From NCBI GenBank assembly GCA_951406725.2, contig OX597832.1:51770001-51834000 (forward strand): a stretch of 64,000 nucleotides of DNA, written 5' to 3'. Below are positions 18,406 through 60,161 of this stretch, one piece after another. A model generated the notes under the pieces. It was given only the letters and a program-made list of their open reading frames with translations. It had not been told where the DNA came from and did not search any database. Position 1 is the first letter of the stretch. Every line of letters begins with the position of its first letter. The stretch is from Octopus vulgaris (lineage: Eukaryota). The translations under genes and the position numbers were made by a program.

Positions 18406-18436
<31 letters not shown>

Positions 18437-18438
<2 letters not shown>

Positions 18439-18638
18439 CCGTGTGTGTATCGTTGGTGATTTTCTTCCTCCATCTTCCCTTCCTTGGATCTTTCTTTTTC
18501 CTATGTTTCTGATGAAGAGCTCCACTCAAAACATTAAATCCTCAATCTTTCTTTCCTTTCCTGAACGTCCAATAACACTATACTTGTTCCACGTCCTCGT
18601 GTTGTGTTTTCTCTTTGTGTTTTCATGTTTAGATTAAC
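18437..18638 (+). mobile_element. Hammerhead-bearing ~210-bp element (family H) within (TA)n
   Basis: Homologous to 21308-21515 and 34753-34965; decayed hammerhead at 18505-18539. Confidence 0.75.
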
Positions 18639-20930: not shown

Positions 20931-21048
20931 GTTATATCCAAATATATGAAGTTAATCCAAACAAGAAAACAAAAAGACAACAACACAAGGATGTAGAACA
21001 AATAAAGTATTATTGGACGCTCAGGAAAAAAGGGAAGAAGGAGGGTTT
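20931..21048 (-). mobile_element. Family H 3' part
   Basis: GTTAATCCAAAC...TATTGGACGCTCAGGAA matches 21308-21392. Confidence 0.65.
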
Positions 21049-21058
21049 ATATTTATAT

Positions 21059-21092
<34 letters not shown>

Positions 21093-21216
21093 AGCCGAAA
21101 TTGCGAGGATGATCCGGTTCTTGACTGAAGATTGAAGGCTTCGAATGTCCCGTCCGTGTTTTTGTATCGTCTTCTAAATGTTTTGCATTCTTGTCCCAGG
21201 TAGTATTTTTTTACAT

Positions 21217-21307
<91 letters not shown>

Positions 21308-21311
<4 letters not shown>

Positions 21312-21515
21312 ATCCAAACATGAAAATACAAAGAGAAAACACAACAACGCGAGGACGTGGAACAAGTATAGTGTTATTGGACGCTCAGGAAAGAAAAGAA
21401 AGAAGGAAGATTTAACGTTTCGAGTGGGGCTCTTCGTCAGAAACATAGGAAAAGGAAAGATCCAAGGAAGGGAAGATGGAGAAAGAAAATCACCAACGAT
21501 ACTCACGCAGTCACA
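21308..21515 (-). mobile_element. Family H element with intact hammerhead core
   Basis: Homologous to 18437-18638. Confidence 0.8.
21410..21444 (-). ncRNA. Minimal type-I hammerhead ribozyme motif
   Basis: GTTT-CTGACGA-A-GAG CCCCA CTC-GAAA-CGT-T-AAAT: intact CUGANGA and GAAA, palindromic ACGU helix III. Confidence 0.65.
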
Positions 21516-22189
21516 TGGCAACTAAGTTCCCATCATGGTTTTAAATTTTGGAATCTATTTTCTTCAAGAATTCTATTTTTGAATCATTTTGGAATCTATT
21601 TTGTTTATTTTCAGTTAATTTTAGTTATTGTTATATTTTGGAATGGTCATTTTGCCAGTTTAGCCAATAAAAACACACGCACTATATATTTGGTGTTATT
21701 TTGCTTCAGTGTTATTTATTTTTACATTAATCTTAATCTTATTTCGGCCAGAGTTCTTTTGTCACACTCCTGTGACCGTATCAGTGGTCCTTTGTTTTCT
21801 TCTTTCTTATTTGTGTCTCTCTTTACTAACCGTCAGCCATTTTGTATTTCTATTGTATGTCTTCATTTGTGCATGCGTATATCTCTATGTGCGTCTATGT
21901 TTATTTAATGTGTGTGTGTGTGGGGAGAATGCCTGTAATATTTGTATCTTCTGTTTACATATGTTCATGTAATTTGTTTTTGTTGTTGTTGTTTTTGTTT
22001 ATTCTTATTTTGTTCATGTGCTTACATCCACTTATTATTATTATCATTACGTATGCTTGTATGTATGTATGTATGTATGTATAACAACAAATATATAACT
22101 TTAGTTAATTTTTATTTATTTTCAGATCCCACATGCTAATGTGAGGCAAAATGGTAGCTTGCCTTGTACTACATCATAAATTGATAACT

Positions 22190-34470: not shown

Positions 34471-34752
34471 TAATTATGTGTTAAAAGCTGCAGAATAGTT
34501 ATTCATTAAATGACATAAATTAGAAATCATATAACACTCGTTCACCTTTTTTCTCTTTTTTCCCATCAAAATATATAAAAATGGTGTAATTTAAAAAATG
34601 ATGAAATAAAACATTTAAAACTAGATAATAGGAAGAAAAAGGATACATACCTCCTTAATTATTGAAACTAGGACATTTCTGACATGTCTTTGAGCCTTCT
34701 TATGTCACATGAAACCAACTAAACACTGTTATCATGTTAATATACAAGCATT

Positions 34753-34965
34753 CAGAATGTGACCGTGTGTGTACCGTTGGCGATTTTTTTTTTTCCTCTG
34801 TCTTCCCTTCTCTTGATCTTTCCTTCTCCTATGTTTCCTACGAAGAGCTCCGCTCGAAACGTTAAACCCTCCTTCTTTCCTTCCTTGCTGAGCATCCAAT
34901 AATACTATATTTGTTCCACGTCCTCGCGTTGTTGTGTTTTTTTGTGCTTTCTTGTTTGGATTAAC
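34753..34965 (+). mobile_element. Family H element with 16-bp TSD
   Basis: TTAATATACAAGCATT at 34737-34752 and 34966-34981; hammerhead at 34833-34867 with core mutated to CCTACGA. Confidence 0.82.
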
Positions 34966-35176
34966 TTAATATACAAGCATTTGTATAGTTGTCTATACTT
35001 ACCTTCCCTTTTTGTCAGTATTTTGTAGTGACTCAATTTACTAGGTCAACAAAGCTGACTTGGTACTTAACTGTACAATAGTTTTACTATAGTGATAATA
35101 GTTTGCTACTCTGGGATGCAGACACCTAAAATTGCTCTAGTGTTTTTTTTTTTTTTTTTGTGACTACCACGTGGCA

Positions 35177-35397
35177 ACTCTTTACTCTTTTACTCTTTTA
35201 TTTGTTTGTCATTTGACGGTGGCCATGCTGGAGCACCGCCTTTAGTCGAGCAAGTCGACCCCAGGACTTATTCTTTGTAAGCCTAGTACTTATTCTATTG
35301 GTCTCTTTTGCCGAACCACTAAGTTACGGGGACGTAAACACACTAGCATCGGTTGTCAAGTGATGTTGGGGGGACAAACACAGACACACAAACATAT

Positions 35398-35452
<55 letters not shown>

Positions 35453-35620
35453 TATGATGGGCTTCTTTCAGTTTCCATCTACCAAATCCACTCACAAGGC
35501 TTTGGTTGGCCCGAGGCTATAGTAGAAGACACTTGCCCAAGGTGCCACGCAGTAGAACTGAACCCGGAACCATGTGGGTCGTAAGCAAACTACTTACCAC
35601 ACAGCCACTCCTGCACCTAC
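35177..35620 (-). mobile_element. SINE family A, full length
   Basis: Similarity to other copies. Confidence 0.9.
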
Positions 35621-40009: not shown

Positions 40010-40521
40010 AGGCGGCAAGCTGGCAGAACCGTTAGCACACCAGGCAAAAGGCTTTAGCAGTATTTCGTCTGCCGCTACGTTCTGAGTTCAAATTCCGCCG
40101 ACTTAATCCGTTTGTCCTCTCTGTGTTTAGCCCTTTGTGGGTAGTAAAGAAATAGATATTTTGTATGCCATTATGTTCTGAATTCAAATTCCGCCGAGGT
40201 CAACTTTGCCTTTCATCCCTTTGGGATCGATTAAATAAGTACCAGTTATGCACTGGGGTTGATATAATTGACTTAATCCATTTGTCTGTCCTTGTTTGTC
40301 CTCTCTGTGTTTAGCCCCTTGTGGGTAGTAAAGAAATAGGTATTTCATCTGCCATTACATTCTGAGTTCAAATTCTGCCAAGGTTGACTTTGCCTTTCAT
40401 CCTTTCGGGGTCAATAAATTAAGTACCAGTTACGCACTGGTGTTGATATAATCAACTTAAACCATTTGTCTGTCCTTGTTTGTCCTCTCTGTGTGTAGCC
40501 CCTTGTGGGCAGAAAAGAAAT
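40010..40521 (+). mobile_element. SINE family B, head plus three body units
   Basis: Flanked by AAATTTTCTA repeats (probable TSD). Confidence 0.85.
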
Positions 40522-40706
40522 AAATTTTCTATCAGCCACTGATGATTTGTAATTTAGATTGATGATATAGAGGAAGGAAATAGGAATTTCCCCATAGCCT
40601 CGATGCCATCTTCTATTATTAAAAGGATATGATAGTTGCTCTGGAATTACAAAAGCATGTGGAATTATCAAGAACTCCAAGATGTCAACACAAAGGGTGT
40701 ACAAAA

Positions 40707-42254: not shown

Positions 42255-42488
42255 ACTCTCTTTACTCTTTTATTTGCTTCAGTCATTTGACTGTGGCCAT
42301 GCTGGAGCACCGCCTTTAGTCGAGCAAGTCGACCCCGGGACTTATTCTTTGTAAGCCCAGTACTTATTCTATCAGTCTCTTTTGCCGAACCGCTAAGTGA
42401 CGGGGACGTAAACACACCAGCATTGGTTGTCAAGCAATGCTAGGGGGACAAACACAGACACACAAACACAGACACACAAACACACACA

Positions 42489-42537
<49 letters not shown>

Positions 42538-42700
42538 GACAGGCTTTTTTCAGTTTCCATCTACCAAATCCACTCACAAGGCATTGGTCGGCCCGGGGCT
42601 ATAGCTGAAGACACTTGCCCAAGATGCCATGCAGTGGGACTGAACCCGGAACAATGTGGCTGGTTAGCAAGCTACTTACCACACAGCCACTCCTGCGCCT
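42255..42700 (-). mobile_element. SINE family A, full length
   Basis: Similarity to other copies. Confidence 0.9.
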
Positions 42701-43118
42701 ATAGTGTGAATAAAAATAAAATTTCTCATTAGCCATTGGTTACATTATATGTATGTGGACTATAATAGAGACGTGGACATTTAGTGAAGCGAGAAAAAGA
42801 TCCAATTCCAATTTCAGCCGACACTTGTTAAAACTTCAGATGAGATAACAAATGAAAAAAATCATTGTCATTGAAAGCTAACTAGAGACACAATATCATA
42901 TCATGTTATGACCAATTTCAGATATAGAAAAGAGAGAAACAAACGGCCGTTTATTAGAAAGTTAAAAATACTAGCATCAAATTTGTCTGACATTATAAAT
43001 ATTTTAAATACTTCATCTGGGCTGTGTTTCAATGAGGGTATTGTGCACCCACAAGCGAGCAACAAATATCAAGAGAGAACTATAAAGAAAACTGAGTGTT
43101 TAGAGATGTAGTTTTTCA

Positions 43119-43337
43119 TACTCTTTACTTGTTTCAGTCATTTGACTTTGGCCATGCTGGAGCACCGCCTTTAGTCGAGCAAATCGACCCCCAGGTCTTA
43201 TTATTTGTAAACCTAGTACTTATTCTATCAGTCTCTTTTGCCGAACCGCTAAGTTACGGGGACGTAAACATACCAGCATCAGTTGTCAAGCGATGTTGGG
43301 GGGACAAACACAGATACACAAACATATACACACACAC

Positions 43338-43380
<43 letters not shown>

Positions 43381-43547
43381 TATGATGGGCTTTTTTCAGT
43401 TTCCGTCTACCAAATCCACTCACAAGGCTTTGGTCGGCCTGAGGCTATAGTGGAAGACACTTGCCCAAGATGCCACACAGTGGGACTGAATCCGGAACCA
43501 TGTGGCTGGTAAGCAAGCTACTTACCACACAGCCACTCCTATGCCTA
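43119..43547 (-). mobile_element. SINE family A, full length
   Basis: Similarity to other copies. Confidence 0.9.
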
Positions 43548-49782: not shown

Positions 49783-50184
49783 TTTACTCTTTTACTCTTT
49801 TACTTGTTTCAGTCATTTGACTGCGGCCATGCTGGAGCACCGCCTTTACTCGAGCAAATCGACCCCGGGACTTATTCTTTGTAAGCCCAGTACTTATTCT
49901 ATCGGTCTCTTTTGCCGAACCGCTAAGTAACGGGGACGTAAACACACCAGCATCGGTTGTCAAGCAATGCTAGGGGGACAAACACACAAACACACATATA
50001 TACATATATATACATATATACGACAGGCTTCTTTCAGTTTCCGTCTACCAAATCCACTCACAAGGCATTGGTCGGCCCGGGGCTATAGCAGAAGACACTT
50101 GCCCAAGATGCCAAGCAGTGGGACTGAACCCAGAACCATGTGGTTGGTTAGCAAGCTACTTACCACACAGCCACTCCTGTGCCT
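49783..50184 (-). mobile_element. SINE family A flanked by ~330-bp direct repeats
   Basis: 49453-49785 is repeated at 50183-50552. Confidence 0.88.
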
Positions 50185-50571
50185 ACTATTTACTATTTAT
50201 TGTACTTTATTCATTTAAAATAAAGTTTTTATTCATGAATTTGGTGAAGAATTCATGGAATAAAGTTACCAACAGTTGCATTGCCAATGCATTACAAGCA
50301 GAGTACTTGGACAAAAAGTGTTCATTTAAGGCAAGTTATATTGTCAAACATGAGAGATTGGGGTCCATGATTCTATAGGAAATGGATTTGCAAGAAATTC
50401 AGTCCGAAGTTCGGGGTTTGAAGAGGACGAAATGTTTGTACTTAACTGAAAACAAGAAGCAATTAAATAAACTTTCGATAACTAAAAACATGGGTTTCCT
50501 TTTTATAATTTGTTTCCTTTTACACGAGGACATGAGACTCATTTTGTCTTTCTTGAATTTTTTTCCGCAAA

Positions 50572-57029: not shown

Positions 57030-57225
57030 AGTCAAATCAAATAATCGAACATTAAAAGTAAGAATAACAAAACAACAACAGATTGTGCACATAGAATGTA
57101 TTAGTTTGATGCTTGTTAAAAGGAGAGGGTTTTTGACATTTCAAGCATAGCTCTTCATCACAAAGGAAAACAGAGAAATCCGGAAAAGGAAGAATATCAC
57201 CAACAGCACATATGTAGTTACATGG
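57030..57225 (-). mobile_element. Diverged family-H relative
   Basis: TTT-GTGATGA-A-GAGC TAT GCTT-GAAA-TGTC-AAA; same overall layout. Confidence 0.55.
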
Positions 57226-58688: not shown

Positions 58689-59230
58689 TATTGATTATAA
58701 GATGTCACAATCCTAAGGACATACCTAACCATGGATTAACTTATGAAAGACACACTGATAAACTTTATGGCAATTGAATATTTTCCTGTTCAACGATGAC
58801 CATAAATTGATTTCCCATTTGTAATGGATAATGTATTACACTCCCATGACTTAGCAGTTTTTGCAAAAGAAACTGATAGAATAAGTGCTGGACACAGACA
58901 GAATGGAGTCGATTTGCTTGACTGAATCCCTCAAGGCAGCATACACAGTTTAATGACTGAAACAAATAAAATAGTACAAGTATATATATGTATGTATACA
59001 CACACACACGTGCATGCACGCACACACACATGCATACACACAAGGATATATAGGGAGAATTCACAAAAAAAGCAAAAGACGAAGACAGGTGGAGTAGACA
59101 ACAGATGTATTAGTTTAATGCTCGGGAAGTGAAAAAGTCTTTAATGTTTTGAGCCTACGCTCTTCCACATAAAGGAACACAGAAATAAACAAGGACAGAA
59201 AATAAAGTATGTTTAGTGGCTAGCGATCTA

Positions 59231-60161
59231 GGGTGTATAAGATATTCGAGGACAGATTTATGTTTATAAAAAACAGATATGTAATAACAGATAATTATTT
59301 ATGAAAAATACTATGAGGATAAAAATAAACCTTTTCTATAATGTTATTCAATAAAGCCACCTTCAGCTTCAGCATCTGCTTCTATATGAGATCTAAATCA
59401 TCTACATGCTCAAATCAAGTGGTCCTGGTTCATTTTGGACATTACTCTGACTATGGCAGCTTTCAAAGAATCTTTGGTGTTATGGGCATGTTCATTAACC
59501 TCTCTCTCAACAACACTCCACATGTAATAGTCCAGTGGATTGAAATCTGGGGAATTAGGAGGCCAGATGTTAGGGATTATGTGATCATGAAAATTTTCAG
59601 CCATCCATTCCTGTGCTACTAGAGCCATGTGTGATAGTGCAGAGTCTTACTGAAACATATATGGCCTTCCATTGCATACACTGTCTATCCAGGGTTTAAT
59701 TATTTCCAGGACCTCAATGTAGGCAGCAGAGTTAACTCTAAGGCCTTGTGGAATGAAGTAAGGAGGCATCACATGTTCTTCATTGCTGACAACCCCTAAA
59801 ACCTTAACAGTTGCAGGAAGTTTTGTATGCATGACACTTGGAACTTCAGAAGGGTCTGCACATAACCATCTGTCATTTCTTCTGTTAACTTTTTGATCTT
59901 GGTCAAAGTTTTTCTTGTTTGAGTAAAACCAAATCAAATCTTCTTCTGTTGGATTTTTCTGTTTGTTTAAGAGCCTTTTAAGTCTGATGTAGTGATTTTC
60001 TTTTGCTTTTTCTGACCAATTGACCTTTCCTCATCATATAAGACTTATATCTGATGTCTTCCTGGACAACATTTCCTACTGTTCCTTCTGACACATGGAG
60101 ATCTTTTGCTATTGACCTCATGGACTTTCTGGGATTGTAATCGATGGTCTGTTGAACAACC
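59231..60161 (-). pseudogene. Tc1/mariner transposase, maT/DD37D-like, 5'-truncated
   Basis: SMRSIAKDLHVS, NRRNDRW, VMPPYF..GLRVNS..YIEVLE, WPPNSPDFNPLDYYMWS; stops and frameshifts. Confidence 0.85.

What the first reader, a model, noticed from the sequence alone, without database searches (positions are those of the whole stretch)
21308..21515. Mobile ~210-bp non-coding element carrying a minimal hammerhead ribozyme (retrozyme-like family H)
Seen: copies at 18437(+), 20931(- partial), 21308(-) and 34753(+), with relatives at 57030 and ~59060. Consensus GTTT-CTGACGA-A-GAGC TCC GCTC-GAAA-CGT-T-AAAC gives stem I, core, stem II, palindromic helix III and a GUU site. Copies share the 3' end (G/A)GATTAAC and similar 5' ends, show no ORF or Pol III boxes, and favour (TA)n; one has a perfect 16-bp TSD. 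Known: such minimal hammerheads work as dimers in Penelope pseudo-LTRs and metazoan retrozymes. Inference: an abundant ribozyme-bearing non-autonomous retroelement or solo pseudo-LTR; I cannot tell whether it is already described.
Basis: partly seen in the sequence, partly recalled or inferred. Interest (0 to 1): 0.72.

Follow-up and report, generated by a model that had tools for sequence, protein, structure and literature searches.

The report
Solo Penelope end repeat with hammerhead
The 210-base repeat is the terminal repeat of a protein-coding Penelope-type jumping gene, likely copied on its own thousands of times; most copies, and the youngest intact lineage, carry a changed letter in the hammerhead core that is predicted to weaken self-cutting.

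Summary
The repeat and its minimal hammerhead are real, but it is not a retrozyme. It is the 3' pseudo-LTR of a Neptune-type Penelope-like element (PLE). A homologous repeat follows the ORF in 17 of 20 endonuclease-selected loci and flanks it on both sides in 5. About 21,000 copies are estimated; only 10 exact head-to-tail junctions were found. All 30 core-independent copies share the 3' end, and 29 lie against a (TA)-type run. 5' ends pile up at an initiator-like site (79 of 100), which suggests SINE-like amplification from a short RNA (inferred). None of 100 copies starts at the predicted cut site. 69% of exact motif matches carry U4C. So does a lineage with intact, 99.6-99.9% identical ORFs, while the rest of the core is conserved. 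Only one of the four close window copies has an intact core. Cleavage and expression are untested. The scan reported a similar reading for another piece of this genome (e1-8672774). Verdict: new member of a known kind, modest interest.

The parts
21308..21517 (-). Solo pseudo-LTR of a Neptune-type Penelope-like element (focal copy, U4 subfamily), 5'-truncated a few bases below the initiator-like boundary
   Evidence: homologous to ORF-linked 3' repeats (88% outside the hammerhead to L256)
21410..21444 (-). Minimal type I hammerhead motif: stem I 21444-21441 with 21413-21410, C3 at 21440, stem II with one C.A mismatch, palindromic ACGU, predicted cut between 21414 and 21413 (untested)
   Evidence: sequence; features of min-HHRs in PMC4209133
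21214..21307 (.). (TA)n microsatellite at the element's 3' end, the likely insertion target
   Evidence: 29 of 30 core-independent copies have a TA-type run at the 3' end
18434..18638 (+). Solo copy, U4 subfamily, core broken (G12A, G16.2A), between TA runs
34750..34965 (+). Solo copy of the majority C4 subfamily (plus G5U), starting at the initiator-like ATTC boundary
34737..34752 (+). Left copy of the 16-bp target-site duplication (last 3 bases shared with the element start)
34966..34981 (+). Right copy of the 16-bp target-site duplication
20951..21049 (-). 5'-truncated copy, 3' half only, without the hammerhead core; starts near the predicted cut site in a TA run (a single case; no such pile-up genome-wide)
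57030..57225 (-). Diverged relative with a decayed hammerhead motif
   Evidence: nhmmer 57097-57217, E 1.4e-7
59050..59245 (-). More distant short-repeat family with a hammerhead-like motif (A6U core in better-kept copies); link to a PLE ORF not shown

Best explanation
The element is the terminal repeat (pseudo-LTR) of a Neptune-type Penelope-like retrotransposon, and the 210-bp form was likely amplified on its own from a short RNA by that retrotransposon's protein, with hammerhead cutting probably not setting the ends. Shown: the repeat flanks RT/GIY-YIG ORFs; solo copies share one 3' end against (TA)n and pile up at one 5' boundary; tandems are rare; most copies carry U4C. Inferred: an internal Pol II promoter starts a capped RNA at TCA(+1)TTC. 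The PLE endonuclease nicks (TA)n. Reverse transcription starts inside the RNA, just behind the repeat's 3' end, where full-length elements read TTTATATAC or ATTATAC and solo copies read into (TA)n, and runs to the cap, giving a roughly 215-bp insert. The hammerhead is kept by selection on the master elements, as a weak protein-assisted ribozyme or as a structural element, but insertion does not depend on its cut.
For: Linkage: L206 has RT, a CxxC linker and GIY-YIG ending about 1.1 kb upstream of the repeat. 17 of 20 endonuclease-selected loci have the repeat downstream in sense, and 5 of 20 have it on both sides of the ORF. The 1008-aa frame matches a Pfam-confirmed RT/GIY-YIG ORF at E 3e-77, and its Atlas neighbours are HTH_animal/RVT_1/GIY-YIG clusters at score 0.98. 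3' end: 30 of 30 shared. 5' boundary: 18 of 30 start within about 21 nt, 11 are truncated further in, and 1 passes it. 79 of 100 lose homology within 0-2 nt of the +1 A, and 9 of those 79 have a G there against 3 with A (my tally). The youngest autonomous lineage shows no such boundary: 93 of 100 read through (my tally). Cut site: 0 of 100 have a 5' junction in the 12 nt above it. U4C: 6,239 of 9,058; 22 C, 4 U and 4 lacking among 30 core-independent copies (read); present in five ORFs 99.6-99.9% identical. Papers: PLE promoters are internal (PMC2377424 abstract). PLE RT initiates internally, and HHR mutants do not affect insertion in vitro (PMC11167929). U4C lowers activity considerably in vitro (PMC3088659 passage).
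Against: No RNA 5' end, promoter or cleavage was measured. The 5' pile-up lies in an AT- and RY-rich head that offers microhomology to (TA)n, so it could be a truncation hot spot. The extra G is seen in only 9 of 79. The young lineage was tested over one 18-nt stretch only, and its start site could lie elsewhere. The core apart from U4 is nearly invariant across lineages whose flanks fall to 45% identity, which argues that the motif still does something. U4C keeps a viroid infectious in vivo (PMC3088659 passage). Pfam scores for this family's own RT and GIY-YIG are below the curated cut-offs. 3 of the 20 loci had no downstream repeat in the stretch fetched.
Confidence: 0.62

Rival explanations
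1. Solo copies are ordinary 5'-truncated insertions of full-length PLE RNA; reverse transcription or 5' joining tends to stop in the repeat's AT/RY-rich head, with no separate short RNA.
For: PLE insertions are mostly 5'-truncated with one terminal repeat (bioRxiv 10.64898/2026.07.22.740005 discussion). Many 5' junctions show microhomology with TA/TG runs. 21 of 100 copies do continue upstream, and 76 exact longer copies exist.
Against: The drop is abrupt: 11 of 30 lost over about 110 nt, then 18 of the remaining 19 over about 21 nt. The upstream CA-rich spacer is as RY-rich. The youngest lineage reads through the matching position in 93 of 100.
Confidence: 0.25
2. The C4 hammerhead is still a working, protein-assisted dimeric ribozyme that processes tandem PLE precursor RNA; it is needed by the autonomous masters and merely carried along by the solo copies. 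This is compatible with either origin of the solo copies.
For: 25 of 31 motif columns are invariant across 9 sequences, against 57 of 215 outside, and the best other window has 17. The youngest lineage has the GUC triplet. The Anolis PLE hammerhead cleaves only with protein (PMC11167929). Young repeats occur in pairs and one trio about 6.2 kb apart.
Against: U4C lowers activity in vitro (PMC3088659). The young lineage has a U.U mismatch in stem I, and its inactive hairpin is more stable than the open hammerhead fold (-8.8 versus -3.5 kcal/mol; -4.1 versus -0.1 for the window copy). No inserted ends map to the cut site.
Confidence: 0.35
3. A non-LTR retrozyme: tandem units are cut by the hammerhead into roughly 215-nt monomers, circularised and reinserted.
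For: Unit length is in the retrozyme range (220-240 bp in coral, PMC7229834 passage). A few dimers and one near-trimer with a 219-bp period exist. Animal retrozymes are proposed to derive from pLTRs (bioRxiv 10.64898/2026.07.22.740005).
Against: Only 10 exact head-to-tail junctions were found against about 21,000 copies, several with TA spacers or a truncated first unit. Copies have one fixed 3' end and are not circularly permuted. None starts at the cut site. The hammerhead is the minimal PLE type, not canonical, and the repeat is ORF-linked.
Confidence: 0.04

Closest known systems
Neptune/Nematis-type EN+ Penelope-like elements (PMC8557442, passages)
   Same: RT followed by a CX2-5CxxC linker and C-terminal GIY-YIG with two internal cysteines; partial-tandem pLTRs with a hammerhead near the 3' end; inverted 5'-truncated copies; (TA)n preference
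   Different: The 210-bp unit far outnumbers ORF-linked copies and has a sharp 5' boundary; the core is U4C in most lineages. Neptune versus Nematis was not resolved.
Minimal type I hammerheads of metazoan PLEs (Cervera and de la Pena 2014, PMC4209133, parts 1-2 of 4)
   Same: Short helix I, bulged nucleotide between 9 and 10.1, G10.1-C11.1, palindromic 15.2-16.2; mostly dispersed single motifs related to truncated PLEs
   Different: Stem II is 4 bp (7-8 bp in the Schistosoma examples). U4C is not mentioned in the text read, which does describe U3-A8; the supplementary alignments were not seen.
Poseidon_Ac of Anolis (Frangieh et al. 2024, PMC11167929, parts 1-2 of 4)
   Same: Internal RT initiation fixing the 3' end (inferred here), AT-rich targets, hammerhead apparently not needed for insertion, no ends at the cut site
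   Different: Different clade. Here the ORF's first conserved ATG lies about 330 nt downstream of the repeat end rather than inside the hammerhead, and no separate 30-40-bp tail was seen.
Animal non-LTR retrozymes (PMC7229834 passages; bioRxiv 10.64898/2026.07.22.740005 parts 1-3 of 5)
   Same: Short, non-coding, hammerhead-bearing, pLTR-derived, likely moved by PLE proteins
   Different: No tandem arrays, minimal rather than canonical hammerhead, fixed linear ends, no evidence of circles

Membership tests
EN+ Penelope-like element pseudo-LTR | Repeat lies 3' of, or flanks, an ORF with PLE-type RT and C-terminal GIY-YIG | tested here: met
   17 of 20 loci downstream, 5 of 20 on both sides; ORF identity
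EN+ Penelope-like element pseudo-LTR | Partial-tandem and inverted 5'-truncated arrangements | tested here: met
   L255 and L258-L262; truncated-plus-full and inverted pairs; repeats about 6.2 kb apart
EN+ Penelope-like element pseudo-LTR | Internal promoter in the repeat | tested here: inconclusive
   Indirect only: 5' pile-up at an initiator-like site (initiator consensus recalled); no RNA 5' ends available
Neptune/Nematis group | [quoted passage not shown] | tested here: met
   Visible in the translations; definition from PMC8557442
Neptune clade proper | Placement in an RT phylogeny with reference PLEs | not tested
   No reference PLE sequences were at hand
Minimal type I hammerhead (PLE type) | Core boxes, stems I and II, bulge at 9/10.1, palindromic helix III | tested here: met
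   Met in the U4 subfamily (2,819 exact matches); the C4 subfamily departs at position 4 (6,239)
Minimal type I hammerhead (PLE type) | Motif more conserved than flanks across lineages | tested here: met
   25 of 31 versus 57 of 215 invariant columns in 9 sequences; stem II is invariant there, so it gives no covariation evidence
Minimal type I hammerhead (PLE type) | Self-cleavage as a dimer | not testable with these tools
   Needs an in vitro assay
Non-LTR retrozyme | Tandem repeats of units, each with a complete hammerhead | tested here: not met
   10 exact junctions genome-wide against about 21,000 copies; the strict pattern misses diverged junctions, but 0 of 30 core-independent copies had an adjacent head-to-tail unit
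Non-LTR retrozyme | Canonical type I hammerhead with loop 1-loop 2 contacts | tested here: not met
   Minimal motif with a 3-nt loop 2 and open 4-bp stem I; no Rfam hammerhead hit
Non-LTR retrozyme | Abundant unit-length circular RNA | not testable with these tools
   Only assembled contigs were available; they cannot show ends or circles

The most novel reading that the evidence does not exclude
A Penelope lineage fixed a core-weakening U4C change, kept every other hammerhead core letter and stayed active to near the present, while its terminal repeat spun off a Pol II, cap-to-priming-site SINE of about 21,000 copies. The genome then holds natural U4 and C4 versions of one ribozyme with an intact cognate protein, which makes the open question 'what is the PLE hammerhead for?' directly testable, and it would show the motif being kept for something other than free self-cleavage.
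Probability: 0.35. Interest if true: 0.5.

Novelty: new member of a known kind. Interest (0 to 1): 0.3.

Why it matters
The class is well known: minimal hammerheads in PLE pseudo-LTRs, scattered as thousands of solo motifs. What this family adds is a natural test case. Intact, nearly identical ORF copies are flanked by a U4C hammerhead, which fits the in vitro finding that PLE insertion does not need cleavage, yet the rest of the core is conserved. It also suggests how solo pseudo-LTRs can multiply as SINE-like units. I found no paper describing this family's hammerhead (searches). Penelope-like families are already catalogued for Octopus vulgaris, with no mention of hammerheads in the main text (PMC13282606); its repeat library, which I did not open, may hold this family.

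Tried and rejected
Bare core pattern in the window: not above chance. Rfam: only microsatellite-driven miRNA noise among the 150 of 192 window hits listed, and no hammerhead on the focal copy. The repeat finder was swamped by microsatellites. First partner search with Pfam GIY-YIG (148 matches) returned other Neptune-type families. None of 64 oriented loci examined had this repeat as its sense 3' end (two had chance antisense copies). The 781-aa family ends in an unrelated U3-A8 hammerhead. A pattern asking for G/C-rich sequence upstream of the 5' boundary found 1 locus, uninformative. TSD search: apart from the window's 16-bp case, duplications were absent or were TA-repeat matches in 30 + 30 loci. 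No PLE coding remnant in the window (tblastn). Expression: no RNA holder listed on record. Contigs of three guessed-RNA runs and one other run cover the repeat but cannot show ends, strand or circles; one shallow backward joint in X1 was not interpretable. The idea that the 20951 half copy marks ribozyme-cut templates was rejected by 0 of 100. The tree is unrooted and L256 is a long branch. It groups the U4 copies at one end and the youngest C4 copies at the other, so 'U4 ancestral' is inferred from ordinary hammerheads, not shown. Pol III transcription was judged unlikely from the T5-T9 run about 35 nt into the sense strand (sequence). Lunse et al. (dimeric PLE hammerhead variants) was not held.

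Full report
Observation. The repeat is present as described. BLAST and a profile from the three full copies give 21308-21515(-), 18436-18638(+), 34758-34965(+), a 3' half at 20951-21049(-) and a relative at 57097-57217(-). The 16-bp duplication at 34737-34752 and 34966-34981 is exact. The focal copy has the minimal hammerhead layout: GUUU/AAAU stem I, CUGACGA, bulged A, stem II with one mismatch, GAAA, palindromic ACGU, GUU site. The other three close copies have a broken or missing core. The bare core pattern is not enriched in the window (5 versus 2.9 expected), so the case rests on the family. The genome is 2.8 Gb in 227 contigs; it is likely an octopus, from SINE motifs I recall, and no call names it.

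Abundance and arrangement. A 31-letter hammerhead pattern has 9,058 exact matches, 0 for the control. A 22-letter pattern outside the hammerhead has 7,976. 13 of the first 30 loci of the second pattern also match the first, which gives about 21,000 copies (probably low, since young copies match both). Forty evenly spaced 10-kb stretches held 3 near-full copies and one 3' half, consistent with that figure. An exact head-to-tail junction pattern has only 10 matches. These are short dimers, one near-trimer with a 219-bp period, truncated-plus-full pairs and an inverted pair, not arrays.

It is a Penelope pseudo-LTR. A few copies showed a shared upstream extension. A pattern for it found 76 copies; in 30 fetched, several continue through a CA-rich spacer of over 1 kb. 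In L206 the spacer leads to a broken ORF with RT (tblastn E 2e-59 to the genome's L081 PLE frame), a CxxC linker and GIY-YIG. Searching with that endonuclease gave 150 scored matches. I extended 20 of them, chosen as top-ranked or long-frame. 17 have a homologous repeat in sense downstream of the ORF, followed by (TA)n where the 3' end is present; 5 have it on both sides; L261 shows only the upstream one; L250 and L253 show none in the stretch fetched. Five copies with 1008-1009-codon frames are 99.6-99.9% identical. Pfam scores their RT and GIY-YIG below cut-off. However, the frame aligns over 728 residues, E 3e-77, with an ORF above both cut-offs, and its Atlas neighbours are HTH_animal/RVT_1/GIY-YIG clusters at 0.98. 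The CX2-5CxxC linker marks Neptune and Nematis (PMC8557442, passages); I did not separate the two.

Ends. Thirty copies picked by a motif outside the hammerhead all reach the same 3' end; 29 are followed by a TA-type run and one by (TC)n. In full-length elements the bases after the upstream repeat are TTTATATAC (L255) or ATTATAC (L258-L262), a short match to the (TA)n target. I infer priming there, in line with internal RT initiation in Poseidon_Ac (PMC11167929, parts 1-2 of 4), though that study found its start sites not homologous to the cut DNA. At the 5' side, 11 of the 30 are truncated at positions 19 to about 125, 18 start within about 21 nt of the head, and 1 goes past it. Among the first 100 of 2,210 matches that reach the head, 21 continue into template, 37 have T, 30 have C or TC, 9 have G and 3 have A before the ATTC (my tally). 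The site reads TCA(+1)TTC, like a Pol II initiator (consensus recalled; Inr-like sites in pLTRs are noted in PMC3846280, passage; internal promoter in PMC2377424, abstract and section 16). The excess of G over A in TA flanks may be a copied cap, but the count is small, and microhomology is an alternative. In the youngest autonomous lineage 93 of the first 100 of 339 matches read through the matching position (my tally). The boundary is therefore not a general property of these elements' insertions, which favours a separate short template for the 210-bp form.

The hammerhead. Across the window copy and 8 ORF-linked repeats chosen through the protein, 25 of 31 motif columns are invariant against 57 of 215 outside; identity of the window copy to the youngest lineage is 87% inside and 45% outside. 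The motif is thus under constraint in the masters. Yet 6,239 of 9,058 exact matches have C at position 4. Of 30 core-independent copies, 22 have C, 4 have U and 4 lack the position (read; the script's looser count was 22 and 5). Of 16 readable ORF-linked downstream repeats, 14 have C, including the youngest. U4C considerably lowers activity in vitro but permits viroid infectivity in vivo (PMC3088659, passage). An inactive hairpin pairing the core with helix III is predicted to be more stable than the open monomer in all three copies tested, and the unconstrained dimer folds were not hammerheads; such folds ignore tertiary contacts and protein. None of the first 100 of 4,854 copies has its 5' junction in the 12 nt above the predicted cut. 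This agrees with the finding that hammerhead mutants do not affect PLE insertion in vitro and that the PLE hammerhead needed protein to cut (PMC11167929).

Mechanism. Shown: pseudo-LTR identity, copy number, shared 3' end at (TA)n, sharp 5' boundary, rare tandems, conserved motif with majority U4C, no cut-site ends. Inferred: internal promoter, short capped RNA, target-primed reverse transcription in trans by the PLE protein, and dispensability of cleavage for insertion. I put identity as a PLE pseudo-LTR at about 0.97 and the whole mechanism at about 0.6.

Comparison. It works like, and is a member of, the PLE pseudo-LTRs with minimal hammerheads, which were described as widespread single motifs related to truncated PLEs (PMC4209133, parts 1-2 of 4; review passages in PMC6765202). 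It fails the retrozyme tests of tandem organisation and canonical hammerhead (PMC7229834, passages). It fits the proposal that such short elements derive from pLTRs (bioRxiv 10.64898/2026.07.22.740005, parts 1-3 of 5; no cephalopod mention). Supplements were not opened for any paper; those of PMC4209133 and PMC13282606 may already hold this family or the U4C variant. The scan's notes hold related PLE-hammerhead findings in this genome but none matching this sequence. I consulted them after forming my reading.

Verdict. Real, abundant, and a new member of a known kind. Interest 0.3, for the U4/C4 natural pair with an intact protein and the evidence for SINE-like amplification of a solo pseudo-LTR.

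Noticed in passing
G000 loci L071-L078 (e.g. L073:1442-3784): A second young Neptune-type family with many intact 781-codon RT/GIY-YIG frames, an overlapping upstream frame of up to 479 codons, a 3' UTR of repeated CCAAT/TGACGTC-like motifs and a U3-A8 hammerhead with ACAUGU palindrome about 75 nt from a (TA)n-flanked 3' end.
   Followed up: partly
window 59050-59245 (-); L087, L090, L108, L110, L116, L131: An abundant short-repeat family (7 hits in 5 of 40 random 10-kb loci) with a hammerhead-like motif sharing stem II arms with the focal element but with A6U in the core, a different loop and a swapped outer stem I pair; probably the solo pLTR of another PLE.
   Followed up: partly
window 21089-21215 (+): Another short repeat ending at a TA run, between the two minus-strand copies; similar sequence in 2 of 40 random loci; contains a decayed CTGAAGA...CGAA motif.
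   Followed up: partly
G000:C3:155080272-155092703: Three pLTRs of the youngest C4 lineage spaced about 6.2 kb apart, suggesting a head-to-tail array of full-length PLE copies.
   Followed up: no
L258:1350-4373 and L263: The young lineage's ORF has a proline-rich N-terminal insert; L263 has a 1392-codon frame, longer than its sisters.
   Followed up: no
window e.g. 35208-35619, 42282-42701, 43138-43547, 49812-50185; 1112-1953, 40110-40593: Several other dispersed repeat families, including SINE-like ones next to (TA)n runs and a 184-bp-period family.
   Followed up: no
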